Shown: positions 3,001 through 39,997, counted from the stretch's first letter. The stretch is 64,000 bases of DNA from a virus (IMGVR_UViG_3300028393_000022), one strand, 5' to 3'. Program-made: numbers and translations. Notes: a model not told the origin generated them from the letters alone.

Positions 3001-6000
3001 TTCCAATTTTTCCATGGATAATTCATTAATATAGGATCGCCAACATTGACAGTTGTTAAAGAATTAGTCAAAGTATTAACATATGCAGGTAAATCAAAAT
3101 CTGTAATGTTAAGGTTAAAGCCTTCAGATGTTTGACCGTCAACATGACTATATATTGAAGTATAACTACGTATCTTGGTATGATAAGGTTTTACTTCTTT
3201 TATATATTCTTCAAAGTAAGATTCATTGTTTAATTTATAAACAGACGGCTGATCCAGTGATCCTATATTATTTGACACATTAATAAAAGAAGTTTTAAAT
3301 GCCCAGTCTAATAATTTTTGTTCCGTTAGTGCAAATTTAACCGCAGCAAAAAAGAATAAGTTCCAATTAACTTTTAAATCATTAATAAAAATATTATTTT
3401 TTAATGCTAAAAGAATATAGTACAGTTCTTGATCAGGAATTTGATTATACGGAGTTTCTTCAATTGATGCTGCATCATATAGATATTTTCCCTTTGTATA
3501 ATCCCACAACGTGTCAAGCAGTTGAATTGTTCCTAGTTCTCTATATATTATGTCGTATAATGGAATATAATTTCCTAATCCATTAACTTTCTTTAATATA
3601 GCATACCGACCATCGCCTATATTTTTAACTTTGACATACTCGCCGTCGGTAATTGACGTTAACGAACCCAATTCAGATAGATTAGAAATAGTATAGGTCA
3701 AACTTTTATACGAATCAAATTCAGAACTTACCCAATCAACTGCTGTCCAAAATTTTGTAGTGTCGTATTTTTGTGTTTGAGTTTTTATCCAAGTACGAAA
3801 CACATAATCAAAAGTGTGTTTAGACCACTTACCGTTAATATCAGAATTAGTTTGAACAATAACAGTATGAGGCCGTACTGTTGTTTGAACATTAATATCA
3901 GTATATCCACTACCTGGATTAATGATTGTTACAGAAATAACTCGACCTTGCGTATCAATAGTTGTTGTTATCTCAGCAGGCGTTAAAGATGAAGAAATAA
4001 TATTAATTTTAGGAGCAATACTATAACCAAAACCAGGATTTGTTATGATTACATTTTTTACTTTTCCATTTTCTGCATAACATTCTAATTCTGCTTGAAC
4101 ATATCTAACTGTATAGATTTCGTTTAATGCATCTAAGTCTTCGACTATTTGATCATATTCGTATGAATATAGTGCAGGAAGTTCTTCTTTTTTATTAAGA
4201 TTTTCAAAAGAATAATTTCCCACTATTCTATTTTTTACAAATACTGAATTTATAAAAGAAATTAAATTTCGTAATGCAGCAAGTCTGTCTTTAAAGAATG
4301 TTTGCTGAGGACGGATTCCGATTCCGTATCTATTTCTATATGTAAGATTTGTACTAGGAACAACATTACCCAAAGAATCATGTCCTAATAAACTGTCAAA
4401 TAATTTTTTCTCAAGTAATGTATTAGGAACATTCGTGTGATCTCCTTCGTTTAATAATAACCATTCAGTATGTTTGGGAATTATTGAATTTGCATCAGTC
4501 GAAATACTGGCATTGATTCTATTCCCAACTAACATAGATTGCACATTGGCAAATGCAACAGCATTAGGCGATATTATTTCTATAAACTTTAATCCATTAG
4601 CTGTTGGATCTGCAATATAGCTAGCAACTTGATAACTGCTTAATCTTCTATTATTGTTAGGTAATGTTAATTTATTCTTTACCCAGAAATAATAAACATT
4701 CTCAAAGGAACCAGTGACATTGTTAAACACTTGTTTAACAGAAATAATACTATTATCGGGATACTTAGGTTGACCGCTGATACCTTTTGTTAGTCCGTTA
4801 TTTGTGTCAGCTACTGCGGCCCACTCACTAGGTAACATATCAGATTTTACCCATTCATAGACATCAATAGTAGCTCCTGGGAACATACGTCCCCAATTAT
4901 TTTTTCTAAATATTTCGTTGCCTTGCTCGTACCACATATATTTGGCAGTACTTAAATCCCACCACAGGTCTCCAATATGTTCATCTAACCAGTTTGTCTC
5001 ATTATTAACAATAGTGCTGGCTAAACCGATAGAGTAGGTAGCAGGATCAAATGCTGCTTTATATTTTAATTCTTGTTCAGCAATGCCGGCAATCTTGCCT
5101 TTTACAGGATCAACAACATCGAGGTAATTGACAATTTCTTCTTTTAAAGTATCAATTAGTGCAACACGGTTAATTGATGAAACATCGACTGTATCTTCTT
5201 GTTCTCTTAATATTTTCCAACTACCGCTAGTAATATCAATCTTATTGAAGATATATAATTTAGATTCGTCAGATATCAAAGGCGATGCCGAGTATTGTTG
5301 ACTAGTCGGAGCTCCAATAATAACTTCATGATTAGTTGCTACAACAGAATTTCCATATCTGCTGCCTTTTAAAATAACGGTATCATTTAATTCATCTGCC
5401 TGGATAAAATAATTTCCTATTTTATTATAAACATAAACTGTTCCTGCATCTTCAACAGATTCAAAAAACTTGGTAGAATCGCCGTCAAATGTTGTTTGTC
5501 CAACATTGATAGATGCATCATAAACTTGTTTTTTACTTCTATTTTTACCCAATGCACTAATTGCAATAGTAAGTTCGTCTTTACTGATAGAAATAGAATG
5601 ACCAAATTTTAAATCATTGGTAGGTAAGGGGTTGCTAATAATTTGATTTAAGACATACATTCCGTTAGTCAATGTGTAAATTACAACTTTTCCGTACGGG
5701 TCATTAGTAGACTTTGTTTCAGGGGCTGATATTAGTAAATATTTTTTTGACTCTGAAAAAGCAATATCGTATCCAAATTTAGAATTAACACCGAACGGTG
5801 AGTTAATTGTTTGCGTATGTGTTAAATTAATATCAAATAATTGAACAACGCCTGTTGATGTAAAATACCCAGGCGCACTAATTGCAATAGTTGTGCCGTT
5901 GAGTGTTCCTGCAACTTTATATCCCCATTGGTTTCCAGCAGACAATGAAATAGATGAAGTTGATACAACCAGAGGTACTGTATTGGTTAAAGTAAATCCC

Positions 6001-9000
6001 TTGACAGTTGCAGTAGTCACATTAGTAATTGTATTTGTTATAGCAGTGATTTTATAAGCATACACTGATCCAGGGCCATTAAAGGATGCGGTACCAGGGG
6101 CACTAACTAGCATTGTAGTGGAGCCGGTGGATACTTGATTAATATATATAGAATGGCCAAATCTAGAATTAGCAGCAGTATCGGCAGTCGTACCGTAAGG
6201 ATTTACCAATACTAAATCAACATTAATTACACCAAATTCTTCGTCTCTACTGTTTATCTTAACTAAACCTTCCTTGACAAAAGATTTAATTTCTCCAGAT
6301 CCCGTACTTAAAATTACGGTACCAGTTCCGATTGTTGTAGACCTAACAAAAGTAGCGTCCGGCGCACCGGCAATATATAATTTTTTATTAATGTCGTACT
6401 GTAATGAATATCCAAATTGTGTAGAGCTAGTACTACTACAATATTGTTTACTGCTGCTATTTAAAATGTAATCGTATTGTCGAGACCACACATTATTAAT
6501 TTTATTGTAGACTTTAATTCGGCCCCAATTAAATGCATTCTCAAGTCTCCATCCCGGAGCTGATACCAACATAACATCACTGTTATCATTGGCATATATA
6601 GAAGAACCAAATTGTTGTCCTAGGGAGGCGGTAGACGCTGCATTAACGGTAGGTGAATAATTTTTAATTTTTTCATAAACTTGCCATTTACCATCAATAC
6701 CAGTATCAATCCAGACTTTGTCTCCCGAGTTTAATTTCAACAAATCTGTAATAGTGCTCAGTTCATCGAGATTGTTGTACCTGGCGCTGCTAAATGTGAA
6801 TAAAGAACCATAGTTTAATAGTTCTGCATTTTCAATAGTAGTTAGAGTAGAAGATACTGTAAATTGATTTAATTCAGATATTGAAGTAACAACATATACT
6901 CCATTAACTTGTTGATTAAATCTGACTATAGAAACAATATCTCCTGCTGTTAGATTATGATAACTGTCTGTAACAAATGTAATTTCGCTACCAGGGGCGC
7001 TAACATAAACACCTGTTATCTCTGCTAATTGTTTTACGTATCTATAAACTGTCCAATCACCATTTTCTAAAAAGCCTAACCATATGGTATCGCCTTCTTT
7101 TAAGATATGGTTATTTGCAATATCTAATAAACTATTTTTATTATAAGCCGTTGATGTAATGTCATCTAATCGAACATATCCTGCGGTTGTTAATTTTAAA
7201 TTATTATCTTCCCATGTTCCTTTATAGGAATCAAATGTATTTGAAGGAACATAATTATTAGGTGTTAGTAGCAAAGAAGCCGATGTTACATAGTTAACCA
7301 AAGGAGCAGTAACAGTCGGAATGCTGTCAGTAAATTTAACGATATAGGGATTTTCTAGAGCAGTGCCCTCTGTTAAAGGAAATTCAATTTCATTAAATGA
7401 GTTGTAGCTCCCATACTGACCTACTCTAAATGCCCATTCTTCTTTAAAGGTAATATTCCCTTTATTTGTATTTTGAGCAGCCTTTGATAACTTATCAAGT
7501 GCGTTTTTTGTTCCTTTATCTTTAATAAATCCTTGATAGAATTTATACTGACTTATAGAATTAGTAAAAATATTATCCAGGTATGTCCTAGGAGTATATC
7601 CTGTAAGATGTTGTGCCAACCGCTGCTGACCAAAATCAAAGTTATCAATATCTAAACTGTAAAAGTCTTCAAATTGATTAATTTTATAATCAAAGTTAGG
7701 CAGCAATTGGGGGATTGGCTTGCTCGCCAATTGATCCCACTCTGTAAAATTAAATGTAGGGCTTGCAGATACTTTGGCCAACGCTTCGTAATATCTGCCA
7801 TTATATCGAACAACTGTGCCGGGTAAGTAAGTTCCAGAAGCGGACCAATCTATGATTTTAACATTATCAAAAACAAATCCCGGACTAAACAAATCACCAT
7901 TCCAATTTTTAGTCCTAAATCCTGATAATTTAATTCTTTGCTGTTTATATCCAGTCTCTACATCATATATAATGTCGTTAAACATTGTATAATTTTTAAA
8001 GACCATGGCATGCTCTTTTTGTACAGAATTAATAGTAGCAAAGAAAAGACCTTCATTGGGATCAGTAGTTTTAATTATGCAAACTGTATCTTCCCTAGAC
8101 ATAGTAAAGCTATTAATAGGATATGGTTTTCCATCTGCTTTTAAAAGACTGTATTCGTACTTGCTGGAATTAATATCATCTGCTACTGAATTAGGGAAAC
8201 TATATTTGATATAATTTGCAAAAGGACTTAATGTAATTAAATTGTTTTCGGCCCAATTTTGAGTTGTCCAATACAAAAATTCTTTACCTGTAAATTTCCA
8301 ATTTAACATTTCGTTTAAATCGGTACTGAACTCATCAAATATAAATCCTTCAGCTTCAAGGTACGCACCGTATCCAACAATTATATTATATACTTCTTGT
8401 ACTGTGGATAATTCAGTGCCGTAAGGGATTTGTGTTATAGTTTTCTCAAAAGAAGATGCTAGTTTTGCTTCGGCGCCTCCTACAATAGGTAATCCGGGCA
8501 AAGGAACATACAATGTAGGATCAAATGTGGATTCAGCAACATGTCCTACTTTAACTCTGTAAAACTTATTGCCGTATCTAATAAGTTGACCTTGCTTATA
8601 ATATCTAGTAGTGGGTCCAGATGCACTTGTTAAATCAACAGAACTTAATCCAGAATTTCCATTGTTAACAACATTTGACCAATCTGAAAATTCTTCTGAT
8701 ACGCCGCCCACTTTTACTGCACCTGTTGCGGCATTTGAGATAGGGTTAAAAATTTTAAAATATGGATTAGCTACATCATATCCTTTAATTACAAAATTAC
8801 CGTTAGATCTTTGAACAATGATACCAGAAATTCTAGCAGTTTTAATAGGATTGCTTACATTTAATATTAAAGAATAATCTTCAGGAGGCAAAACTACACC
8901 AGGACTAGTTGATGCAGGATCAATAGAATCAATTGTAATTTGTAATTTTTCCTTGCTAGCAAACCCGCCTAGCTTGTGGAAAAGATTAGATTCTAAGTAA

Positions 9001-12000
9001 GTAAGATCTTGTTTTAATACATTGATATAGTTTTGATCTTTCTGATTACCTTTCTCAATAACATAAGATCCATAACCTGCAATCATAGAATCTGCATCGC
9101 CTTCAATGACCAGCTTTCTAGGATCTAAATAAAGACCAGTGGTAGTGTAAGTTACCTGGCCCAATGGGTTAATGGTTGTTCTACTGGTGTCATATAACGT
9201 AGAACAAAAATTTGTAGGGTCTAATAAGGCGGCAGTAGATATCAATGCAAACGGCCAAGCACTACTATTTCTCCATGCATTTTCAGCCGGACCCATATCA
9301 CCAAATTTCCAACTGGCAAGTTTGTCTTGATAGTTACTTGCCGATACTAAAAACAACTCTGGGCTCTTTAAATTCCCCAATGCATCTACAGGAATAATAT
9401 TACTTAACCCTTGACGAACATAATTTGTATCAAAAGTGCCAGTACTTGCGTTATAACCAAGTTCAATATCTGACCACATGACCGTATTGGCAGAGGTATA
9501 TGGAGCCGGTCCATATATATTCTCCCACCAAATTGGTTTGGTTGTTAAACCTAACATTTCCCACGGTCTAATATCAGGACGCTGGGTATCATAAAAATAT
9601 CTAAATAAATTCTTAGAGGTACCAGTCACTTCGCTATTAAACCATTTGTCGATACTACCTTTAAAATTCCAGGTCTTTGAATTACCAGAATCAAATGTAG
9701 AATTGGTCTTTACATCAACGTTGTTTATACCTGCCCATCTAGAAAAATCACTAATAAGGATGCTGTTTAAATCTTCAACAGAATATTTTGTATTTCTAAA
9801 TGCGCCAGGTTGTATTGCAATAATATCAAATAATTTACTGTTGTATTGAACTTTAATATTATTAAAAATTCGTTGTTCAAATTCAAGAATAATAGCATCT
9901 CTATAATCGCCGTAGGCTTTTATGATACTACCGTCATGCCCTTTAATACATAATGTAGGAACAACATAAGAGGTATCTGTATAAATTTCAGGTACTGTTG
10001 CAGGATATAGTCCCAATTTACTAGGGGTAGGAGGTACATAACTTCCCAGTGTATTTGGATAACAATTAATAGATATAACGTCATTAACTAATAAATCTGT
10101 TAAGAAAATAACCGATCCATTAATATAACTAAATGTATAATCTACTCCATATGATTGCTGGACATTGTTCAAATAAACATTAACTGCTTTAAAACTTAAT
10201 CTAGTCAGATCAAATTCAAATCCTATAGGATATTCAACATTGTTAATATCTCGAACAGTAAATGTTCTAACTGTTTTGTTTTGACCATAACCTAACATAT
10301 CAGAACGCTGATACATTGATTTAATATCTTTGGCTCGATTTAAATTAGTTAAAATAGAATCCACTGCATCAATGGGAGATGCTTGGTTGTCAATTGCAAT
10401 TAATGATCTTAAAAAATTCATTTTAAACTGACTATAATGATCGCCAGCTTGTCTAATTGCATCAACTAAATTATGTTCTTTCTTGCCAAGAAATATTTGT
10501 GCAAACGAAATAGGATTTGCATTAACTATTAATCGAGTCCCGTTCTTAGTATAGTTAACTAAATCTCTTAAATTTGAACCAGTATATGCAGGAATCTTAC
10601 TTACCATTGATGACAAATGATCACCTAGTTCACTAAGTGTCATACTAGAAAATGTGCCATTCAATGGGTTATTAGTTAAACCAATAGGCGTTTCATAATA
10701 ACCATTTAGATTAGGTTGTTGTGTTGTAAAAACTTTTATTACTATGACATCATTAATATATAATGTATCAGTAGTAATTGTAATTTCAGCCGAAGTTGCA
10801 CTAATAATAGATGACAGTTTTTTACCGTTTTTATAAACTTCCACGGTCAGATCAGTAGTAACAATGGGTTTATCTAAACAAGTTAAAGTCAGTGTATTTG
10901 TTTGTTCAGCAATTGTCTGAATCTCAATAATAGGAATCTGATAGTCAGATGCCTCTACCCATACATTAATTAATTCATTATCTAATTTTAAATAGGTAAC
11001 TGCTGCGGATATAGTAGTGCTTGCATTATTAGAAATAACAGAGATAGTGTCTGTCATAAAATAATTTTTAAATAGATAACTTCCTAATCCAATGCTATTT
11101 TGGTATTTTAAAGAAAATTTCAAAACTTTATCATATACAGTACCCAATTCATAACCAAATAATTTAGTACCCGTAAAGTTATTAATTTCTAAAGATTTAG
11201 TAAAACTTGTTCCGTCAGCCGTGAATAAATCAAATAACGGAGGCTGATTTACTTTGTCGTGTTGTTGTGCGTATATCCATTTAATATTAGTAGCATCAAA
11301 GTACCAGCTTGTCCCATAAAATTCGTTTCCAGAATTGATACTAATTGAATTATGATCAGAAGGAATCGCATCTGCTGCAGGAATAAGACGTAATAATGGG
11401 ATTTCTCCTGCGGAGTTTATATCTATCTCAAAAATTCTACCCCTTACAGCATCATTTAGATCGGCATTAAAAATTACCCTATTTCCTTTTTGCAACAATG
11501 TACCGTCAACATAGAATCCAGGACTGCCGTCAACTTCAACAAATGCATCTCTAACAGAATTATCAATAACATCTATATTTTGATTACCAACTTTTCCAAA
11601 ATTATATAATTGTAAATTTGGTCTAAATTCAACAATAGGACGTTTTGCTCGAGCCCCCAATGGATATAATGCAGGAACATTATTAATATTAGCAGTAGCT
11701 TCGATAATATCTCTATGGAACCATCGATTGTATCGAGACCATGGATTTAGATCTTTACTAGCTCGATTAATAGTAATATAATCGGGTTCAACGGGCAATC
11801 GCTTGTCTCCACCTGCATCAAATGGATAATTATCAAAATTAATACTATCAAATGTTTCGTCAAAACCTGTTGCTATTCTTGCCGACGAAGTTAATAATGA
11901 AAAATCAATTAGTTTAATAGATTGTCCGACTCCCTCTACAATATATTCTACATTTGATATAGAAATTTTCATACCGTTGCTTAAAGGATAACCGTTGCTC

Positions 12001-12485
12001 ATAATATAAGACGGAGATCCAATAATATCATTTATATTGTCAGACTTTAAAAAAATAACGGTAGGGCCGACAGGAAGCCAATAATAGCTAGTATAGTTGA
12101 CTAGTTTATCCCAGTCAATTAACGGATCATAAGAATAAAATTTAGATTTTAATAAGGTGTCGAGATTATTTGTTTTGCTACCTTGTATTCCCAATTCATT
12201 AATTAAATCATTATATGCAACAGCATCAGTAATATTTCCTAATTGATCTTTAAAAACTATTGCTGGCTCTAAACTATAATTTTTTCTCAAAGGGGATGAA
12301 TCTTCGAGATAAGAATCCACCGCTGGACGATAATTGGGGGTAATTTTTGAACCAATATATCCATCAACCCGCTCAACTTGAGGCGTTTGAATAAGTTGAT
12401 CGATAGTGCTAGATAAAAACTTAGAGTTTTTATCTGTCCTTATATACTCTGGTAATAAATTAACTGATTTCTTAATATCCGCCAT
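1..12485 (-). CDS. Giant baseplate/virion structural protein (>4160 aa, gp7-position), 3'-truncated by window edge; contains a seven-repeat FG-GAP-like beta-propeller
   Basis: ATG at 12485, 1 nt after the gp6 stop, reads MADIKKSVNLLPEYIRTDKNSKFLSSTIDQL. The same frame gives protein-like sequence at ~6415 (QFGYSLQYD) and at the window edge (DNVKVYLNGKELRPGYDFAVNVINE). The ORF track lists no long closed minus-strand ORF here, which fits one ORF with no stop inside the window. Lies directly downstream of gp6. Confidence 0.88.
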   Translation of the reverse strand, partial: MADIKKSVNLLPEYIRTDKNSKFLSSTIDQLIQTPQVERVDGYIGSKITPNYRPAVDSYLEDSSPLRKNYSLEPAIVFKDQLGNITDAVAYNDLINELGIQGSKTNNLDTLLKSKFYSYDPLIDWDKLVNYTSYYWLPVGPTVIFLKSDNINDIIGSPSYIMSNGYPLSNGMKISISNVEYIVEGVGQSIKLIDFSLLTSSARIATGFDETFDSINFDNYPFDAGGDKRLPVEPDYITINRASKDLNPWSRYNRWFHRDIIEATANINNVPALYPLGARAKRPIVEFRPNLQLYNFGKVGNQNIDVIDNSVRDAFVEVDGSPGFYVDGTLLQKGNRVIFNADLNDAVRGRIFEIDINSAGEIPLLRLIPAADAIPSDHNSISINSGNEFYGTSWYFDATNIKWIYAQQHDKVNQPPLFDLFTADGTSFTKSLEINNFTGTKLFGYELGTVYDKVLKFSLKYQNSIGLGSYLFKNYFMTDTISVISNNASTTISAAVTYLKLDNELINVWVEASDYQIPIIEIQTIAEQTNTLTLTCLDKPIVTTDLTVEVYKNGKKLSSIISATSAEITITTDTLYINDVIVIKVFTTQQPNLNGYYETPIGLTNNPLNGTFSSMTLSELGDHLSSMVSKIPAYTGSNLRDLVNYTKNGTRLIVNANPISFAQIFLGKKEHNLVDAIRQAGDHYSQFKMNFLRSLIAIDNQASPIDAVDSILTNLNRAKDIKSMYQRSDMLGYGQNKTVRTFTVRDINNVEYPIGFEFDLTRLSFKAVNVYLNNVQQSYGVDYTFSYINGSVIFLTDLLVNDVISINCYPNTLGSYVPPTPSKLGLYPATVPEIYTDTSYVVPTLCIKGHDGSIIKAYGDYRDAIILEFEQRIFNNIKVQYNSKLFDIIAIQPGAFRNTKYSVEDLNSILISDFSRWAGINNVDVKTNSTFDSGNSKTWNFKGSIDKWFNSEVTGTSKNLFRYFYDTQRPDIRPWEMLGLTTKPIWWENIYGPAPYTSANTVMWSDIELGYNASTGTFDTNYVRQGLSNIIPVDALGNLKSPELFLVSASNYQDKLASWKFGDMGPAENAWRNSSAWPFALISTAALLDPTNFCSTLYDTSRTTINPLGQVTYTTTGLYLDPRKLVIEGDADSMIAGYGSYVIEKGNQKDQNYINVLKQDLTYLESNLFHKLGGFASKEKLQITIDSIDPASTSPGVVLPPEDYSLILNVSNPIKTARISGIIVQRSNGNFVIKGYDVANPYFKIFNPISNAATGAVKVGGVSEEFSDWSNVVNNGNSGLSSVDLTSASGPTTRYYKQGQLIRYGNKFYRVKVGHVAESTFDPTLYVPLPGLPIVGGAEAKLASSFEKTITQIPYGTELSTVQEVYNIIVGYGAYLEAEGFIFDEFSTDLNEMLNWKFTGKEFLYWTTQNWAENNLITLSPFANYIKYSFPNSVADDINSSKYEYSLLKADGKPYPINSFTMSREDTVCIIKTTDPNEGLFFATINSVQKEHAMVFKNYTMFNDIIYDVETGYKQQRIKLSGFRTKNWNGDLFSPGFVFDNVKIIDWSASGTYLPGTVVRYNGRYYEALAKVSASPTFNFTEWDQLASKPIPQLLPNFDYKINQFEDFYSLDIDNFDFGQQRLAQHLTGYTPRTYLDNIFTNSISQYKFYQGFIKDKGTKNALDKLSKAAQNTNKGNITFKEEWAFRVGQYGSYNSFNEIEFPLTEGTALENPYIVKFTDSIPTVTAPLVNYVTSASLLLTPNNYVPSNTFDSYKGTWEDNNLKLTTAGYVRLDDITSTAYNKNSLLDIANNHILKEGDTIWLGFLENGDWTVYRYVKQLAEITGVYVSAPGSEITFVTDSYHNLTAGDIVSIVRFNQQVNGVYVVTSISELNQFTVSSTLTTIENAELLNYGSLFTFSSARYNNLDELSTITDLLKLNSGDKVWIDTGIDGKWQVYEKIKNYSPTVNAASTASLGQQFGSSIYANDNSDVMLVSAPGWRLENAFNWGRIKVYNKINNVWSRQYDYILNSSSKQYCSSTSSTQFGYSLQYDINKKLYIAGAPDATFVRSTTIGTGTVILSTGSGEIKSFVKEGLVKINSRDEEFGVINVDLVLVNPYGTTADTAANSRFGHSIYINQVSTGSTTMLVSAPGTASFNGPGSVYAYKITAITNTITNVTTATVKGFTLTNTVPLVVSTSSISLSAGNQWGYKVAGTLNGTTIAISAPGYFTSTGVVQLFDINLTHTQTINSPFGVNSKFGYDIAFSESKKYLLISAPETKSTNDPYGKVVIYTLTNGMYVLNQIISNPLPTNDLKFGHSISISKDELTIAISALGKNRSKKQVYDASINVGQTTFDGDSTKFFESVEDAGTVYVYNKIGNYFIQADELNDTVILKGSRYGNSVVATNHEVIIGAPTSQQYSASPLISDESKLYIFNKIDITSGSWKILREQEDTVDVSSINRVALIDTLKEEIVNYLDVVDPVKGKIAGIAEQELKYKAAFDPATYSIGLASTIVNNETNWLDEHIGDLWWDLSTAKYMWYEQGNEIFRKNNWGRMFPGATIDVYEWVKSDMLPSEWAAVADTNNGLTKGISGQPKYPDNSIISVKQVFNNVTGSFENVYYFWVKNKLTLPNNNRRLSSYQVASYIADPTANGLKFIEIISPNAVAFANVQSMLVGNRINASISTDANSIIPKHTEWLLLNEGDHTNVPNTLLEKKLFDSLLGHDSLGNVVPSTNLTYRNRYGIGIRPQQTFFKDRLAALRNLISFINSVFVKNRIVGNYSFENLNKKEELPALYSYEYDQIVEDLDALNEIYTVRYVQAELECYAENGKVKNVIITNPGFGYSIAPKINIISSSLTPAEITTTIDTQGRVISVTIINPGSGYTDINVQTTVRPHTVIVQTNSDINGKWSKHTFDYVFRTWIKTQTQKYDTTKFWTAVDWVSSEFDSYKSLTYTISNLSELGSLTSITDGEYVKVKNIGDGRYAILKKVNGLGNYIPLYDIIYRELGTIQLLDTLWDYTKGKYLYDAASIEETPYNQIPDQELYYILLALKNNIFINDLKVNWNLFFFAAVKFALTEQKLLDWAFKTSFINVSNNIGSLDQPSVYKLNNESYFEEYIKEVKPYHTKIRSYTSIYSHVDGQTSEGFNLNITDFDLPAYVNTLTNSLTTVNVGDPILMNYPWKNWNDNYKLFVGSIEVGYTGSGYSERPTVVITTAPGDSGSGAEAEAYIRNGKVYKVIVTNPGSGYTATPLATIVGGGSVIDVARVSVIMDNINTRKNLIGIKFDRTSSSGDLIDLTVTDEFLCDGTTNKFTLTWLASPDKKTITPLVDGKLVYSADYTIEYYQIKVEKDGINIPAAFPRNSWEGERMIDHRYKYFNTITPNNLPDNIRHYAKFVFLNQIPNFEQVFKITYNKNIDLYNAVDRINKMYNPTDLMPGKELPLLMDGIEYSGTQIQGLKFEQTPNWDSTGTGFDSAPWGDTLSSYTKTQLLQDLYFPTQAFSVASIDGIFPGQSIGFAGTSTYNQIFKPGTVVTGVNRPLPERKDGIVYISTLDRVDTQIFYAWSTGTAKGSTITIETKDPFRTAISKGDRVKIYGVNSLAGYGIETIYFVRGSRPVVNTYTDIPSVSVIIAPPDFPGGIQATAVPLFDGNTATIIQVTNPGMGYSIPPNMYLSGPLKSYGSIAGSLDPGYNQFAYVEAATTNQIQFKSQFTLSSTATVLPLMPLSGRFPYFDLLSENVSYVNSKNKLIDHTVTTFDSSTHLVVNILATVEQTARASVYLNSTEVLSTSTDTVWYSVTNSVDGYNRSIVSVQNATGAILSGTVDVKLYDFTEIEFYSYNTEYSNLDSLISGSYIQDNFNGYKAEDIRIDGNNFLNEIDSHAPEECVPGYVRDSLGINVYTVGTPSSPLVQSGVFTAITNVPTRAKLTYVPATPAGFLVYANGITYTRVDNEGAFSSSTQYAIFGNEIIVPAQLAITKIGYTFITVGSDVKMDSSFIAVDISTIEGTGTAMVSSLLMIDDVKSVYVLANGHPVPLLLPGYNYGYTLEPVSLVNNRASVKIYGLNSGSYTFEAWFFDAVYPVFNRVYEQFNTVSSSSSSITSMILAMPPTIIEPLSEEIIVEKITSTGRYRMLPPWATYYKIRSGITTFAIDPKNSRPSTYSLDNVKVYLNGKELRPGYDFAVNVINE

Positions 12486-25666: not shown

Positions 25667-27447
25667 GCTTTAACATCAAGACAATCACAGTTAAGAACTT
25701 TCTTAGCGTGGGAAATCAGACACAGGCTGTTGATTTTGACAAGCAACATCTAACATTGGTACTGGGATCTAACTTAGATCTAGGCGGTGACGACACAGGA
25801 TCGCGCAATGGTACCGGCAAAACTACAATGATCAATGCATTGAGTTATGCATTGTACGGGCAAGCCCTTACTAATATTAAAAAAGAAAATTTAATTAACA
25901 AGACCAATGGCAAATCCATGTTGGTCACAGTTGAGTTTGAGAAGAATGGCGTCATTTATCGTATCGAGCGGGGTCGCAAACCTAATGTTCTTAAATTATA
26001 TGTCAACGATCAGGAGTTAAAATCTAAAGATTCAGAGGATGATAGCCAAGGCGATAGCCGTGAAACACAGAAAGCAATCGAGCAGATGCTGGAAATGAGT
26101 CACACTATGTTCAAGCACTTGGTTGCACTGAACACTTACACTGAGCCGTTCCTATCTATGAAGGCTGCGGAGCAGCGTGAAGTTATTGAACAACTATTGG
26201 GTATTACTTTACTAAGTGAAAAAGCAGAAGCACTTAAAACATTAATCAAAGAAAGCAAAGATTCTATACAGATTGAGACAGTTAGAATTGATGCTGTTAA
26301 AGGTGCAAATGAAAATGTGCAAAAAAGTATCGATAGTTTGCACTTAAAAAGTTCAGCATGGGAAAATAAGCACGACAGCGAACTAGAAAATCTAGGTCGT
26401 GCCATTGTTAATCTTGAAGCTGTTGATATTGAAGCAGAGTTATCAGCACATATTGCATTGCAACAGTGGACAGAGAACAATAATAAGCTACGCGACCTAA
26501 CTAGACAACGTGCAACATTGGAATCTGCTGTAGGGCAAGCTGAAAAGACTCTTAAGAAATATAAAACAGAGTTAGAAAGCCTTGGAAATAAAAAGTGTCA
26601 TGCTTGCGAGCAAGAACTTCACGACCACAAGCACGAAGAAATGACTGCTACTGCTACGCAGCATTACGACGAAGCCTATGAATACTGGCAGAAGATGCGG
26701 GCACAACTTAAACAGATAACAGAAGAAATTGCTGCTGTTGGTGAGTTGCCACACAAACCTTCTACTTACTATGATACAGAAGCAGAAGCGTTGGGTCATA
26801 AAAATAATCTTGCCAGTTTAGAAAGATCATTAGACGCAAAGGTTGTAGAAGCCAATCCTTATAATGAGCAGATCGAAGAATTGAAAAAGACTGCGATCCA
26901 AGAAATCAACTGGGGCACTGTTAATTCACTAACTAAGCTAAAAGATCATCAGGAATTCTTGCACAAACTGCTGACAAACAAAGATAGTTTTATCCGTAAA
27001 AAGATTATCGATCAAAACTTGAGCTACTTGAACAAGAGATTGAGCTACTATATTGATAAACTGGGTTTGCCGCATCGTGTTATTTTTCAAAATGATCTAA
27101 GTGTTGAGATTACGCAGTTAGGACAAGATTTAGATTTTGATAATTTAAGTCGTGGTGAGAGAAACAGATTAATTTTATCTATGAGTTTTGCTTTCCGAGA
27201 TGTTTGGGAAGGATTATATCAAAGCATGAACTTATTGTTCATCGATGAGCTTGTAGATGCTGGCATGGATACAGCGGGGGTGGAATCTGCACTGGCTGTA
27301 TTGAAAAAAATGGCCAGAGAGAGAAATAAGAATATATACTTAATATCGCATAAAGACGAATTAGTGGGCAGAGTTAATAATGTACTTAGAGTTATTAAAG
27401 AAAACGGTTTTACCAGTTACTCAAACGATGTAGACTATGTCGAATGA
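25663..27447 (+). CDS. gp46: Recombination ATPase subunit (Rad50/SbcC-like), T4 gp46
   Basis: KNFLSVG, Walker A NGTGKTT, coiled coil with CHAC zinc hook, signature LSRGE, Walker B LLFIDE, H-loop ISH. Confidence 0.95.
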   Translation: MSFNIKTITVKNFLSVGNQTQAVDFDKQHLTLVLGSNLDLGGDDTGSRNGTGKTTMINALSYALYGQALTNIKKENLINKTNGKSMLVTVEFEKNGVIYRIERGRKPNVLKLYVNDQELKSKDSEDDSQGDSRETQKAIEQMLEMSHTMFKHLVALNTYTEPFLSMKAAEQREVIEQLLGITLLSEKAEALKTLIKESKDSIQIETVRIDAVKGANENVQKSIDSLHLKSSAWENKHDSELENLGRAIVNLEAVDIEAELSAHIALQQWTENNNKLRDLTRQRATLESAVGQAEKTLKKYKTELESLGNKKCHACEQELHDHKHEEMTATATQHYDEAYEYWQKMRAQLKQITEEIAAVGELPHKPSTYYDTEAEALGHKNNLASLERSLDAKVVEANPYNEQIEELKKTAIQEINWGTVNSLTKLKDHQEFLHKLLTNKDSFIRKKIIDQNLSYLNKRLSYYIDKLGLPHRVIFQNDLSVEITQLGQDLDFDNLSRGERNRLILSMSFAFRDVWEGLYQSMNLLFIDELVDAGMDTAGVESALAVLKKMARERNKNIYLISHKDELVGRVNNVLRVIKENGFTSYSNDVDYVE

Positions 27448-27742
27448 AGAGATAAACAAGTATAAGGAACTGTATAGTCAACTGATTAGTGAATTAGTTG
27501 GCTTGCATAATACCCATGCTTCGTTTGTTAGGAATGTTGGTAGAGATACCGGCAATGCTTGTAGGAGACATCTGAGAGCAATATCAAATATTGCCACTGA
27601 ATTAAAAAGACAGGGGCAAAAAGTTGGAAAAGAAAGCACAGCTAATAGAAGAGCTGAGAAGAAAGCTGCAATAGCAGAACAAGCAAGGCTTAACGCTATA
27701 CCAAAAAAACGAGGCCGTAAGCCAAAAGGAACTATAAAATGA
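27437..27742 (+). CDS. Small basic protein, probable Hc1/histone-H1-like paralogue with C-terminal AT-hook-like motif
   Basis: 101 aa helical protein. GNACRRHLRAI aligns by eye with GTRSRKALAEL of the next ORF; ends PKKRGRKPK. Confidence 0.5.
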   Translation: MSNEEINKYKELYSQLISELVGLHNTHASFVRNVGRDTGNACRRHLRAISNIATELKRQGQKVGKESTANRRAEKKAAIAEQARLNAIPKKRGRKPKGTIK

Positions 27743-27936
27743 ATGATACTAATACACAATTACAAGCAACCTTTGCAGAATTCTTAGCTGAAGATGCAAA
27801 ATTTACAGGTGGTAACTCTGCCGCTGGCACACGCTCACGCAAGGCTCTAGCAGAGTTAAGCAAGTTAGTTAAAGCCCGCCGTAACGAAATCACTGCCGAG
27901 AAGAATGCTCGCAAGGAAGCCAAGGCAACAAAATAA
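27739..27936 (+). CDS. Histone H1-like (Hc1-family) DNA-binding protein
   Basis: 65 aa. KFTGGNSAAGTRSRKALAELSKLVKARRNEI matches the Hc1 N-terminal family pattern (GNkaAgtRaRK.l.el.kl.k..R). Confidence 0.75.
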   Translation: MNDTNTQLQATFAEFLAEDAKFTGGNSAAGTRSRKALAELSKLVKARRNEITAEKNARKEAKATK

Positions 27937-27939
27937 TCA

Positions 27940-28368
27940 ATGACTTGGACCTACAAAGGCTCTATAGTTAACGAACTTCCTGAAGATTGTATCGGTTATG
28001 TTTACTGCATAACCAATATAACCTCAGGACGCCAATACATTGGCAAAAAATTAGCAAAATTCTCTAAAACGACCTACAAGACGATCACGTTGAAGAACGG
28101 CACAAAAAAGAAAAAGAAGATTCGAAGCAAAATCGACAGCGACTGGCAGGAATATTACGGGTCCAGTCCTAATTTAACAGCAGATATCAACACCCTAGGC
28201 AAAGACAACTTCTCTCGCGAAATACTATACTATTGTAAATCCAAAGCAGAAACATCTTACATTGAGGCCCGCGAACAATTCGACCGCAAAGTATTAGAAT
28301 CCGACGATTACTATAACGGACATATCCAAGTCCGTGTCCATGGCTCTCACATAAAATCTAAAATTTAA
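27940..28368 (+). CDS. Compact GIY-YIG endonuclease
   Basis: GYVYCITN...RQYIGKK, SDWQEYYGSS, FSREIL, conserved E (YIEAREQ) and YYN; basic insertion KNGTKKKKKIRSK; no C-terminal DNA-binding repeats. Confidence 0.85.
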   Translation: MTWTYKGSIVNELPEDCIGYVYCITNITSGRQYIGKKLAKFSKTTYKTITLKNGTKKKKKIRSKIDSDWQEYYGSSPNLTADINTLGKDNFSREILYYCKSKAETSYIEAREQFDRKVLESDDYYNGHIQVRVHGSHIKSKI

Positions 28369-28379
28369 TCTAACACCAA

Positions 28380-28741
28380 AGGTTGGCGGGCCAGTTTGTA
28401 ATACCGCTGTGGAAAAACTGGGGAATAACCAGACACGTAACATGATGATGCACTCCCGTGGGTATATCCCACCAGCCTGAAAAATTGGTCGCGAGTCTAA
28501 GAGCACGAACCCTACGCTCAACGCATTGTCATAGTATGAATGTTAGCATACGAAAAACCGTGCTATAAACACTTAGACACTAGGAACGAGGTCTAAGACG
28601 CATTATGCGAGTCGATGTAGGTTGGGAAAGATCAGAGCCCATTAGCATTACGGTAAAAACACCTATTTCCAATGTCTCGGCCTGTGATAACTCACATGAA
28701 GACAAAAAGCGGAACCGCTCAAAACGGTTCCGTCTGACCAA
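28380..28741 (+). ncRNA. Candidate large structured non-coding RNA (unassigned family)
   Basis: Intergenic and dense in stems. AGGUUG(28380-85)/CAGCCU(28473-78) closes domain 1; UUGGUCG(28485-91)/UGACCAA(28735-41) closes domain 2; internal hairpins include GUGGG/CCCAC, UAGCA/UGCUA, CUUAGAC/GUCUAAG, UGUGA/UCACA and GCGGAACCG/CGGUUCCGU. Several G-U pairs favour the + strand. Confidence 0.6.
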
Positions 28742-28764
28742 AATAATCTACATGAATTTAAAAA

Positions 28765-28835
28765 GCTTCGCTGAAACAATTGCTTCAAGTAAGAGCGTAA
28801 GCGATTACGAAGAAGCAAATGAGCGTCAGCTCATT
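28765..28835. other. Cluster of GC-GN(N)A-GC mini-hairpin motifs and inverted repeats
   Basis: GCTTCGC (=GCGAAGC on minus) at 28765-71; GAGCGTAAGCGA at 28793-804 inside a TTGCTTC/GAAGCAA stem; perfect AATGAGC-GTCA-GCTCATT at 28818-35. Confidence 0.5.
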
Positions 28836-28842
28836 ATAAATA
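28835..28842 (+). promoter_or_regulatory. T4-type late promoter TATAAATA
   Basis: Exact T4 late consensus, 29 nt upstream of ATG 28872, with RBS TAGGA in between. Confidence 0.75.
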
Positions 28843-28871
28843 AAAGAAACAACTTCTTAGGAAATCCCTTT

Positions 28872-29489
28872 ATGCGTATCACTGAATTAATAATTGAAAA
28901 CAATCAAATAGATGAAATATCTCTTAAAGGTATCGGTCAAGGTCTAAGCAAGGCTGCTGATGCAGTTGGAGGTGCTGTTGGTGGCGTGCAAGGACAATGG
29001 GCTGGAATGCAAAATGTATATAATCAAAAAAGAGATAGAGTGGCGGCTGTAGCTCAAAGAAATGCAGAACAAGCAGGTGGTTATAAAAAGCCCGCCGCAC
29101 CAGTTGTAGCACCTACTCCAATAGCCGCTGTTCCTCCTACTGCACCAGCAGCTAATGCGGTGCCTAACAGTGGAACAATGTCAATTAATGGCAACAAATT
29201 AGATCCTAAGAATCCAGCTGATGCTAAAATAATTGCTCAGATACAGGCACAAGATGCACATAATGCTACCCAACAGGCTGCTCCACAACCAAGTGCAACT
29301 GCGGCACCGAGTGCCCCTCCTCGTCGTCTTGTAGGTCCAAAGGGAGTAGCCGCTGTTGAAAAAGCATACAAATCTTTACCAGATCCGCAACGTAGTCAAG
29401 CAAGACAAAGCATTGCAGCGATTGACGCAGGAGTTAAAGAAAGTTTGACTGTTGGTTATAAAAGTAATTTTCTAGGTCTAGTAATTTAA
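28872..29489 (+). CDS. Ala/Pro/Gln-rich late protein, probable internal head protein
   Basis: Start reassigned to ATG 28872 (late promoter + RBS). N-terminus MRITELIIENNQIDEI carries I/L-x-E motifs of the type cut by gp21-family proteases. Confidence 0.6.
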   Translation: MRITELIIENNQIDEISLKGIGQGLSKAADAVGGAVGGVQGQWAGMQNVYNQKRDRVAAVAQRNAEQAGGYKKPAAPVVAPTPIAAVPPTAPAANAVPNSGTMSINGNKLDPKNPADAKIIAQIQAQDAHNATQQAAPQPSATAAPSAPPRRLVGPKGVAAVEKAYKSLPDPQRSQARQSIAAIDAGVKESLTVGYKSNFLGLVI

Positions 29490-38999: not shown

Positions 39000-39065
39000 T
39001 AAATAGCTTTGTTCGCCCTTTAAGGGTTTTATGCGGTACCATCCGCGTAGATCATAGAACGATCT
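39000..39065 (+). promoter_or_regulatory. Late promoter plus structured 5' leader (three hairpins, possible pseudoknot)
   Basis: TAAATA 39000-05; hairpins GCCCT/AGGGT, TATGCGG/CCGCGTA and GATC/GATC; the loop GAAC (39057-60) complements the 5' GTTC (39011-14). Confidence 0.55.
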
Positions 39066-39085
39066 TAACACAAGGAGAAAATAAA

Positions 39086-39997
39086 ATGGGACGTCCAATT
39101 AAAGACAAATTTTTCGGTAGTTCAACTACCCCTTATCAAAACGCCAACGTTGGCGGCCGTACTGGTGTCGGCGGCGAAAGCGTAACATCAGTAATTGCTG
39201 TTGCTAGTTCAGGAACATTGTATTCCGCAGGTGCAACACTAGTAGTAAGCGCACCAAACATTGCAGGTGGTATCAGAGCCACTGCCACACCTACAATTAG
39301 TCTTCCTGGTATCGGCGGTATTACTGCTGTTACATTAGGTACAGCTGGAACTGGTTATACTGCAACTGCTACCATAACAGTTACTACTGCTAGTTCTGTT
39401 ACTAAAACAACAACTGGTACAATTTCAACAAATATCATTTATCCTGCAGATACAACTGGAGTTCAAGTAGGTATGAAAGTTGTTGGTACAGGTATTAACG
39501 CAGGTGCAACATACGTTACTGCTGTCTACTCAACAGGTACTGTTGTATCGGCTGCAAACGCAGGAGCAGTTAGTGGCGCAGTGGTCTTCCTTGACGCAGG
39601 TTCTGGATTTGCCGCAGTCACAGCGTTAACAACTACTACATTTAACGCTATACAAATCATCTCTTATGTTCCAAATGGTTCAAGTGGTATCAGTGGTGGC
39701 GACATCATGAAGCAAGAAGGAAGCCGCCGTTACCTAGTTCAAAATGCACAAGGTCAAGGAATCTGCAAATTGTCTACTGGTACATTAGTTGCTGGTGGCA
39801 TGCACATTATTGCTACAGATTCTGCAGGTGACACATATTGGGTTACTAAGTTAACAAGTCGCAAAGCAAACTTGTATCCAAGATCAAATACAGGTACATC
39901 TATCTATAGTACTATCAAAGTAGCACCATGGACAATTGGCAGTGCATCTGGTACTACTACTGGAACTGCTATTGTTTCTCTAAGCCACACAGTTTAA
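39086..39997 (+). CDS. Thr/Gly-rich virion protein (possible head decoration)
   Basis: Start moved to ATG 39086 after AAGGAG; MGRPIKDKFFG N-terminus, IMKQEGSRRYLV C-terminal domain; follows gp23. Confidence 0.6.
   Translation: MGRPIKDKFFGSSTTPYQNANVGGRTGVGGESVTSVIAVASSGTLYSAGATLVVSAPNIAGGIRATATPTISLPGIGGITAVTLGTAGTGYTATATITVTTASSVTKTTTGTISTNIIYPADTTGVQVGMKVVGTGINAGATYVTAVYSTGTVVSAANAGAVSGAVVFLDAGSGFAAVTALTTTTFNAIQIISYVPNGSSGISGGDIMKQEGSRRYLVQNAQGQGICKLSTGTLVAGGMHIIATDSAGDTYWVTKLTSRKANLYPRSNTGTSIYSTIKVAPWTIGSASGTTTGTAIVSLSHTV

What the first reader, a model, noticed from the sequence alone, without database searches (positions are those of the whole stretch)
27940..28760. Compact GIY-YIG nuclease followed immediately by a ~360-nt multi-domain structured RNA: candidate phage ribonucleoprotein system
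Seen: 11 nt after the GIY-YIG stop begins the only long non-coding stretch in a very tightly packed 64 kb. It folds by eye into two closed domains. Domain 1 is AGGUUG 28380-85/CAGCCU 28473-78, enclosing GCGG/CCGC, (U)GUG-CUGG/CCAG-CAC(G) and GUGGG/CCCAC. Domain 2 is UUGGUCG 28485-91/UGACCAA 28735-41, enclosing about eight hairpins (GAGC/GCUC, UAGCA/UGCUA, CUUAGAC/GUCUAAG, CGCA/UGCG, UGGG/CCCA, GUCU-UGUGA/UCACA-AGAC, GCGGAACCG/CGGUUCCGU) plus a possible pseudoknot CCUAC 28511-15/GUAGG 28617-21. Several G-U pairs indicate RNA on the + strand. The 142-aa nuclease lacks the C-terminal DNA-recognition repeats of Seg/I-TevI homing enzymes but has a very basic insertion (KNGTKKKKKIRSK). Established: nuclease ORF + adjacent structured RNA is the architecture of HEARO/OMEGA (HNH/RuvC) systems. 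Inference: this may be an undescribed GIY-YIG-associated RNA (guide, scaffold or primer). I cannot assign it to tmRNA, RNase P, SRP, 6S or group I/II introns.
Basis: partly seen in the sequence, partly recalled or inferred. Interest (0 to 1): 0.85.

Follow-up and report, generated by a model that had tools for sequence, protein, structure and literature searches.

The report
Twin-box structured RNA beside phage nuclease
The gene-free stretch behind a small DNA-cutting enzyme gene of this uncultured freshwater T4-like giant phage encodes a real, knotted non-coding RNA of about 470 bases. It belongs to a barely catalogued family that also sits on bacterial islands, it does not depend on the enzyme, and it shows one 7-letter word twice for a reader that is still unknown.

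Summary
Window 28370 to about 28840 (+) is non-coding, conserved in over 100 IMG/VR phage contigs, and folds into helices that keep pairing through compensatory changes (92% of cells paired against 33-48% for slid controls).

It matches no Rfam family. However, its 3' module is shared with a sister RNA at the same locus, whose first third is Rfam RF01718 (Polynucleobacter-1). The module consists of two identical 7-nt boxes behind CUC and UCU, a hairpin between them, and a downstream hairpin with a GAGCGNNAGCGA loop.

The same full-length RNA lies in bacterial chromosomes without any GIY-YIG gene. There it sits next to DUF6641 and a small tyrosine recombinase.

The ribonucleoprotein reading is not supported:
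- GIY-YIG relatives exist without the RNA.
- A 96%-identical GIY-YIG precedes a different RNA body.
- Inserted genes can separate the two.
- The whole gp47-gp46-GIY-YIG-RNA block is syntenic.

The boxes differ between relatives yet were identical in every distinct copy that the exact-repeat search recovered (90-133 by pattern). No complement was found in cis.

The best reading is a stand-alone trans-acting RNA that offers twin seeds to one partner. The function is unknown.

Earlier follow-ups of this scan reached the same verdict on other genomes ("twin-box RNA").

The parts
27940..28368 (+). GIY-YIG nuclease gene (142 aa, SegE-like). It is a syntenic neighbour of the RNA, not shown to be a partner.
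   Evidence: Pfam PF19835 at 1.3e-32 and phrog_447. Catalytic residues are invariant.
28370..28840 (+). Full twin-box structured RNA: body, 3' module and three tail hairpins. The ends are inferred from conservation, not mapped.
   Evidence: Conservation starts at CUAACAC and continues through the tail hairpins. Bacterial copies end in a terminator after the GAGCG-loop hairpin.
28380..28478 (+). Domain 1: outer helix AGGUUG/CAGCCU enclosing GCGG/CCGC, GUG/CAC, CUGG/CCAG and GUGGG/CCCAC.
   Evidence: helices 4 and 5 carry 3 and 4 compensatory pairs and are 97-100% paired. The outer helix is 84% paired.
28491..28551 (+). GCG/CGC enclosing GAGC/GCUC, then the hairpin GUAUG/CAUAC.
   Evidence: helices 7-9 are 98-100% paired, and GAGC/GCUC has 2 compensatory pairs.
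28557..28654 (+). Long-range helix ACCGU-GCUA (28557-65) with UAGC...ACGGU (28643-54).
   Evidence: The variant CACCG/CGGUG is compensatory. Helix 11 is 100% paired with one compensatory pair.
28572..28597 (+). Hairpin CUUAGAC/GUCUAAG with an invariant loop (ACUAGGAACGA).
   Evidence: Five of 7 pairs have compensatory changes. The loop is invariant in 50 sequences.
28599..28609 (+). Variable-length hairpin (CGC/GCG in the window).
   Evidence: All 3 pairs are compensatory.
28617..28666 (+). Pseudoknot helix GUAGGU/ACCUAY, enclosing the hairpin UGGG/CCCA (28623-41) with its conserved 11-nt loop.
   Evidence: 100% paired but nearly invariant. It crosses the helix 28557-65/28643-54. RNAalifold offers AUCUAC 28746-51 as an alternative partner.
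28673..28704 (+). Helix UGUCU/AGACA, whose loop displays CUC plus box 1.
   Evidence: The helix covaries as (A/G)UCUCGG with CGAGAU in other clades.
28694..28700 (+). Box 1 (ACAUGAA), preceded by CUC 28691-93.
   Evidence: Identical to box 2 in every distinct RNA recovered by the exact-repeat searches (90-133 by pattern), across 12 or more box variants.
28709..28733 (+). GC-rich hairpin between the boxes, followed by GUCUGAC 28732-38.
   Evidence: 92-95% paired. Type B and bacterial copies have an equivalent hairpin plus GUGUGAC.
28750..28756 (+). Box 2 (ACAUGAA), preceded by UCU 28747-49.
28764..28772 (+). Short UUCG-loop hairpin after box 2. It is a longer, terminator-like hairpin in relatives.
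28780..28818 (+). Hairpin with the conserved loop GAGCGUAAGCGA (28793-28804).
   Evidence: The loop motif is found within 160 nt after box 2 in 79 of 126 distinct phage copies and in all bacterial copies read. The stem covaries.
28818..28835 (+). A 7-bp hairpin, the probable 3' end, just before the late-promoter box TATAAATA 28835-42 of the next gene.
   Evidence: the stem is detected; late boxes in relatives.

Best explanation
This is the gene for a stand-alone, roughly 470-nt, pseudoknotted non-coding RNA. It is a member, with a new body type, of a family whose sister form begins with the Rfam Polynucleobacter-1 motif.

It lies behind the GIY-YIG gene because that whole block of the phage genome is syntenic, not because the nuclease needs it. 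It is probably transcribed with, or just after, the early gp47-gp46-GIY-YIG unit, and it ends before the late promoter of the next gene.

Inferred mechanism: the ornate body is a scaffold. It presents two single-stranded, identical segments of about 11-16 nt: box 1 in a hairpin loop and box 2 in a linker. The segments follow the pattern NN-[CUC or UCU]-N7-[G or A]-NN. They would act as twin base-pairing seeds for two copies, or a tandem, of one complementary nucleic acid in trans.

The four fixed differences between the two units are all transitions. One partner carrying GGG and U opposite them could therefore pair with both units through G-U wobble.

Because bacterial islands carry the same RNA, the phage copy may imitate or replace the island's RNA during infection.

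Shown: the RNA structure, the family relations, independence from GIY-YIG, and the twin-box rule. Inferred: that it acts in trans, the seed function, and the biological role.
For: Structure:
- (covariation and controls).
- (alignments).

Family:
- The core pattern hits more than 117 viral contigs.
- The sister type B at the same locus scores 114 bits on RF01718 and shares the CUC-box, hairpin, GUSUGAC, UCU-box and GAGCG-loop hairpin.
- Bacterial copies have the same layout.

Independence from GIY-YIG.

Not a leader of the next gene: a late-promoter box lies after the RNA, and terminator-like hairpins with U tracts follow box 2 in several clades.

Twin boxes:
- Identical in every RNA-bearing copy recovered, with 12 or more variants.
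- The repeat extends to the flanking NN on both sides, with fixed CUC/UCU and G/A differences.
- No conserved ORF ends at the boxes.
Against: - No partner has been found. There is no cis complement, no conserved complementary site in up to about 14 kb of flanks, none in the 119-kb phage record, and none above control level in three bacterial genomes.
- Predicted accessibility of the boxes is only slightly above background (0.47 and 0.52 against 0.43).
- Three coordinated changes (two boxes plus a partner) per box switch are demanding.
- Expression is not shown. Metatranscriptome contigs cover parts of the RNA at low depth, no higher than the GIY-YIG gene, and could be DNA carry-over.
- The ends of the RNA are not mapped.
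Confidence: 0.5

Rival explanations
1. GIY-YIG ribonucleoprotein: the RNA guides, scaffolds or primes the adjacent nuclease, in the manner of OMEGA or HEARO systems.
For: In phage contigs the RNA is almost always downstream of a GIY-YIG homolog on the same strand. This holds for every type-A hit with enough upstream DNA and for 80 of 82 type-B hits with twin boxes. The nuclease has a basic loop. The boxes are short, variable, guide-like segments.
Against: - Bacterial copies have no GIY-YIG.
- GIY-YIG homologs occur without the RNA.
- 96%-identical nucleases precede unrelated RNA bodies.
- Genes can be inserted between nuclease and RNA.
- RNA-less relatives share the basic loop and catalytic residues.
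- Synteny of the whole block explains the linkage.
Confidence: 0.06
2. The feature works at DNA level. Either the two boxes are crossover or overlap-type cores for a recombinase, which must be identical to each other but may have any sequence. Or the region is an RNA-primed replication origin, where the transcript pairs back onto its own DNA.
For: 'Identical but arbitrary 7 bp' is the established rule for overlap regions of tyrosine recombinases. In bacteria a small tyrosine recombinase (about 190-235 aa) follows the RNA, directly in G066 and after one ORF in G052 and G094. An earlier follow-up of this scan proposed an origin.
Against: - Two phage genomes at least 95% complete that carry the RNA, and three partial ones, have no tyrosine recombinase.
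- Two direct sites 56 bp apart are too close for excision.
- No inverted arms flank the boxes consistently.
- Heavy RNA-type covariation, including G-U pairs, argues for function as RNA.
- Bacterial chromosomal copies are unlikely to be origins.
- DUF6641-integrase modules also occur without the RNA.
Confidence: 0.12
3. Self-processing RNA: the body is a ribozyme, and the two units are the two reaction sites (cleavage, ligation, splicing or circularisation of the 56-nt hairpin segment). The joined product would therefore recreate the same local sequence.
For: Invariant loops and junctions (the 11-nt hairpin loop, the UGGG/CCCA loop, UUCC, GUCUGAC) and a pseudoknotted core resemble catalytic RNAs. 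Direct repeats flanking a removable segment give one product wherever the join falls.
Against: - No Rfam ribozyme or intron model matches, even at E up to 10.
- The flanking genes are intact, so no host gene is interrupted.
- No contig lacks the inter-box segment, and no joint across it was seen in the RNA contigs (weak).
- The topology differs from group I (and my own reading).
Confidence: 0.12
4. Cis-acting element of the early operon: a 3' UTR stabiliser, terminator or attenuator with no function in trans.
For: It starts 2 nt after the GIY-YIG stop codon (first helix 11 nt after it), and hairpins lie at its 3' end. Rfam's authors listed Polynucleobacter-1 as possibly cis-regulatory.
Against: About 470 nt with pseudoknots and invariant loops is far more than termination needs. 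In bacteria the RNA has its own intergenic promoter region, divergent from DUF6641, and its own terminator. In some phages another ORF precedes it. The next gene has its own late promoter.
Confidence: 0.08

Closest known systems
Polynucleobacter-1 RNA motif (Rfam RF01718; Weinberg et al. 2010, PMC2864571)
   Same: Sister RNAs at the identical phage locus (L018, L002) and bacterial copies start with this 141-nt motif. They continue into the same 3' module as the window's RNA: twin boxes, inter-box hairpin, and the GAGCG-loop hairpin. The habitat is the same (fresh water, Burkholderiales-like bacteria).
   Different: The window's RNA and 14 other type-A loci do not score on RF01718, even at permissive thresholds. 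Rfam models only the first third, lists it as a possible cis-regulator, and describes neither the twin boxes nor the phage context.
Large ornate RNAs of unknown function found in phages and bacteria (GOLLD RF01998, ROOL RF03087, HEARO)
   Same: It is several hundred nucleotides long, multi-domain and pseudoknotted. It occurs in phages and in bacterial mobile regions, and no function is known (established knowledge).
   Different: No Rfam model matches. No tRNA genes are nearby. The twin-box rule is not described for those RNAs, as far as I know.
OMEGA systems (IscB or TnpB with omega/reRNA)
   Same: A nuclease ORF next to a structured RNA, with the RNA on the 3' side as in TnpB.
   Different: The nuclease is GIY-YIG, not RuvC/HNH. 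There is no transposon context. The RNA exists without the nuclease and the nuclease without the RNA. No long guide matching flanking DNA was found.
Free-standing GIY-YIG homing endonucleases of T4-like phages (Seg proteins, PF19835)
   Same: The protein family and catalytic motifs match. It sits between conserved genes.
   Different: It has only 142 aa and no DNA-binding tail. It is fixed at one syntenic position over 52-96% identity, like a core gene, and is not patchy like a homing gene. Homing was not tested.
Spacer or overlap identity rule of tyrosine recombinase sites (lambda att, lox, FRT), and the two programmable loops of IS110 bridge RNAs
   Same: Short segments whose sequence is free but must match a second copy. 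In bacteria a small tyrosine recombinase gene follows the RNA.
   Different: The phages carry no such recombinase. The boxes are 56 nt apart in direct order and lack consistent inverted arms. No donor/target pair was identified.

Membership tests
Rfam RF01718 Polynucleobacter-1 | Covariance-model score at or above the gathering score (37 bits) | tested here: not met
   There is no RF01718 match in window 28200-28950 at E up to 10, nor in 14 diverse type-A loci at E up to 1. The sister loci L018 and L002 score 114.5 and 86 bits.
Twin-box RNA family (informal: RNAs that continue RF01718 in phages and bacteria) | Two identical 7-nt boxes, the first behind CUC and the second behind UCU or YCU, 45-60 nt apart | tested here: met
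   Window boxes lie at 28694-28700 and 28750-28756. The same rule holds in type B and in bacterial copies.
Twin-box RNA family (informal) | A GC-rich hairpin between the boxes, followed by GUSUGAC | tested here: met
   Window 28709-28738.
Twin-box RNA family (informal) | A downstream hairpin with a GAGCGNNAGCGA loop | tested here: met
   Window 28780-28818. Present in 79 of 126 distinct phage copies and in the bacterial copies.
OMEGA / HEARO RNA-guided nuclease systems | The nuclease is IscB or TnpB (RuvC with or without HNH), and the RNA matches the HEARO or omega models | tested here: not met
   The protein is GIY-YIG. There is no Rfam match.
OMEGA / HEARO RNA-guided nuclease systems | Obligate coupling of nuclease and RNA | tested here: not met
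   The RNA occurs without GIY-YIG in bacteria. GIY-YIG occurs without the RNA.
Group I / group II intron | A match to intron models, and interruption of a host gene | tested here: not met
   No RF00028 or group II match at E up to 10. The Hc1-like gene upstream is complete (Pfam positions 1-56 of 57), and the downstream gene has its own start and promoter.
tmRNA, RNase P RNA, SRP RNA, 6S RNA | Detection by ARAGORN or Rfam | tested here: not met
GIY-YIG nuclease superfamily (the protein) | Pfam score above the cut-off, and conserved GIY, YIG, Arg, Glu and Asn | tested here: met
   PF19835 at 113 bits against a cut-off of 25. G19, V21, Y22, Y33, I34, G35, R62, E109 and N126 are invariant. Nuclease activity was not tested.

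The most novel reading that the evidence does not exclude
The twin-box RNA is a programmable specificity RNA. Its two identical boxes would select, by base pairing, a nucleic-acid site for an enzyme that varies with the host element: a small tyrosine recombinase on bacterial islands, and perhaps the GIY-YIG nuclease or a host enzyme in phages. That would make it a new class of RNA-directed DNA or RNA targeting, shared and fought over by phages and bacterial islands.
Probability: 0.08. Interest if true: 0.9.

Novelty: new variant of a known kind. Interest (0 to 1): 0.6.

Why it matters
Large, intricately folded RNAs with no known job are rare, and they have repeatedly led to new biochemistry. 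This family is abundant in uncultured freshwater and marine T4-like giant phages, and it also sits on bacterial mobile or defence islands. Only a third of one of its forms is catalogued.

The twin-box rule holds in every copy recovered: two short words that drift freely yet stay identical, with four fixed transition differences beside them. This is a sharp, testable constraint that points to a templated or base-pairing mechanism.

Showing that the RNA does not depend on the neighbouring nuclease also stops a tempting but wrong 'RNA-guided GIY-YIG' annotation from spreading.

Tried and rejected
- **Known RNA families.** Rfam at gathering and permissive thresholds, and ARAGORN, found nothing for the element.
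- **Cultured phages.** blastn of the RNA against 50,697 phage records found no match.
- **Decayed C-terminal domain or coding stretch.** Rejected, because indels break the frame and no conserved ORF ends at the boxes.
- **'Sense codon plus stop codon' reading of the boxes** (bypass-like or tmRNA-like). Rejected, because bacterial boxes contain no stop codon and the upstream open frames are 2-57 codons long and not conserved.
- **Repeat flanking the whole cassette.** The upstream region of the GIY-YIG gene is unrelated across clades.
- **Cis complement of the boxes.** None found.
- **Trans complement.** None in the locus flanks, the 119-kb phage record or three bacterial genomes; only the boxes' own antisense strand matched, and the rest was at control level.
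- **Link between box sequence and the NN of the GAGCG loop.** None found.
- **All-against-all mutual information.** Clade structure dominated it, so it was not informative.
- **Loose Polynucleobacter-1 pattern scanned over genome contigs.** All 120 hits were chance matches, so the scan was wasted.
- **DUF6641 as an obligate bacterial partner.** Rejected, because most DUF6641 loci lack the RNA.
- **DUF6641 or a tyrosine recombinase in the phages.** Not found.
- **PADLOC.** No hit for DUF6641 or the neighbouring small proteins.
- **Metatranscriptome contigs.** Low, patchy cover of both the nuclease gene and the RNA. Ends and strand cannot be read, so this is no evidence either way.
- **Predicted accessibility of the boxes.** Only slightly above background.
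- **Minimum free energy of the single sequence.** Not significant on either strand.

Full report
**Context.** The window is part of a 119-kb IMG/VR record of an uncultured freshwater T4-like giant phage. The gene order around the finding is:
- gp47-like and gp46-like genes;
- two small Hc1-like histone proteins;
- a 142-aa GIY-YIG nuclease (27940-28368);
- a gene-free stretch;
- a late gene starting at ATG 28872;
- convergent baseplate-hub genes.

- The nuclease is a full SegE-type GIY-YIG domain (PF19835, 113 bits) with invariant catalytic positions.
- The stretch behind it is not coding. Relatives differ by 1-, 3- and 4-nt indels, the ATG at 28752 runs into stops in relatives, and the conserved protein starts at 28872 behind a TATAAATA box.
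- The minimum free energy of the single sequence is unremarkable (z -1.76 on the plus strand and -1.50 on the minus strand). The case therefore rests on comparison.

- On 50 non-redundant cores, my helix set is 92.6% paired against 36-48% when partners are slid. It has 131 double-change cells against 55 in shuffles, and 0 of 500 shuffles reach that.
- On 30 full-length relatives the figures are 92.4% against 33-38%, and 109 against 33.

For example GUGGG/CCCAC becomes GUGAG/CUCAC, GUCAG/CUGAC, GUAGG/CCUAC or CUGGA/UCCAG.

- the domain-2 closing helix (61% paired);
- the CCUAC/GUAGG pseudoknot, because the CCUAC side is not conserved.

Instead, the invariant GUAGGU (28617-22) pairs with ACCUAY (28661-66). 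That helix crosses a covarying long-range helix (28557-65 with 28643-54), which makes a true pseudoknot. The element also runs further than reported. Three more conserved hairpins reach about 28840.

**The twin boxes.** This is the oddest feature. ACAUGAA occurs at 28694-28700 behind CUC and again at 28750-28756 behind UCU, with a GC-rich hairpin and GUCUGAC between the two copies.
- In relatives the word changes, for instance to ACGUGAA, GUAUGAA, GCAUGAA, ACAUAAA, GGAUAAU, AGAUAAU, GGAUGAU or AGAUGAG. Both copies change together.
- The two copies were identical in every distinct copy that the exact-repeat searches recovered (90-133 by pattern), and no near-identical pair was seen.
- The repeat extends to two bases on each side.
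- The units differ only at fixed positions, CUC against UCU and G against A. All of these are transitions.
- Box 1 lies in the loop of a covarying helix, and box 2 lies in a linker.

- no complement in cis;
- none in the flanks;
- none in the phage record;
- none above control level in three bacterial genomes;
- no conserved ORF ends at the boxes.

**Family relations.** Sixty loci with very close GIY-YIG genes lack the window's core motif. However, they carry another non-coding RNA of similar size at the same place, which I call type B.
- Its first third is Rfam RF01718, Polynucleobacter-1 (114 bits).
- Its 3' end has the same CUC-box, hairpin, GUGUGAC and UCU-box module, plus the same hairpin with a GAGCGNNAGCGA loop.
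- The literature lists RF01718 only as a candidate, possibly cis-regulatory motif from Burkholderiales and fresh water.

A covariance-model search of 151 genomes from one bacterial order found the motif in four small genomes. Reading on from those hits shows the whole RNA, including twin boxes, GAGCG-loop hairpin and terminator.
- The bacterial boxes are AGCGAAA, GGCGAAA and AGCGAUG.
- There is no GIY-YIG gene there.
- A DUF6641 gene is transcribed divergently upstream.
- A small tyrosine recombinase follows the RNA, directly or after one ORF.
- In one genome a Zorya ZorD gene lies nearby.
- DUF6641-recombinase modules also exist without the RNA.

The window's RNA (type A) does not score on RF01718. 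It is therefore an uncatalogued body type of this family.

**Is it a GIY-YIG ribonucleoprotein?** The evidence says no.
- In phages the two features are nearly always on one strand in order. But so is the whole block from gp47 onward, even where the nuclease is only 52-58% identical.
- The nuclease occurs without the RNA in cultured relatives (Melnitz, P-SSM2) and in other contigs.
- The RNA occurs without the nuclease in bacteria.
- A 96%-identical nuclease (L018) precedes the other RNA body. L002 combines that body with the window's type of tail hairpin and downstream gene, so the RNA is exchanged as its own module.
- A 106-aa ORF, or a radical-SAM gene plus another gene, can lie between nuclease and RNA.

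**What does it do?** This is unknown. I commit to a stand-alone, trans-acting scaffold RNA that offers twin seeds to one complementary partner. The transition-only differences would let one partner pair with both units through wobble. The phage copy possibly mimics the island RNA. I hold the mechanistic part at roughly one in three. The rivals, given above with odds, are:
- a DNA-level recombination or origin element;
- a self-processing ribozyme;
- a purely cis-acting UTR;
- the RNP reading.

Metatranscriptome contigs from two studies cover parts of the RNA at low depth. They cannot show ends, strand or level.

**Prior notes of this scan.** After my own analysis I looked up earlier findings. 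Several follow-ups on other genomes describe the same 'twin-box' RNA and reach the same verdicts. One proposes a replication origin. My additions are:
- the extended unit with fixed transition differences;
- the covariation counts for this body type;
- the recurrent small-recombinase and DUF6641 context in bacteria;
- the absence of such a recombinase in near-complete phage genomes.

Noticed in passing
window 3-12485 (-): A giant open reading frame of more than 4161 aa runs off the start of the window. It is followed by genes of 1181, 774 and 1180 aa on the same strand.
   Followed up: no
window 39015-39088 (+): This is the only Rfam match in the window at gathering score: the freshwater-2 RNA motif (RF02980, 57.8 bits), in front of a late gene.
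   Followed up: no
window 27437-27742 and 27739-27936 (+): Two small basic proteins lie upstream of the nuclease. The second is a complete Hc1-type histone-like protein (PF07432, 4e-13). Both are syntenic with the RNA across distant clades.
   Followed up: partly
L041 3389-3709; L429 4678-6488: Extra genes are inserted between the GIY-YIG gene and the RNA in some phages: a 106-aa ORF with no family, and a radical-SAM/B12-binding protein plus a 151-aa ORF.
   Followed up: partly
G094:C1 about 402k, 989k and 1307k; G052:C4 about 70.7-73.3k: Small bacterial genomes carry several copies of a module made of DUF6641, a variable ORF and a 190-235-aa tyrosine recombinase that starts MAQAK. Only some copies hold the twin-box RNA, and the copy at 1307k looks decayed because its boxes are no longer identical.
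   Followed up: partly
L369 about 1503-1516 (G052:C1:387101-387114): A 13-nt stretch identical to unit 1 (flank plus CUC plus box) of that genome's own twin-box RNA lies inside an AbiEii toxin gene, next to another integrase. About 0.1 such matches are expected by chance, so it may mean nothing.
   Followed up: partly
window 28707-28732 (-): Read on the minus strand, the inter-box hairpin followed by a T-run looks like an intrinsic terminator. This holds for type A only, not for type B.
   Followed up: no
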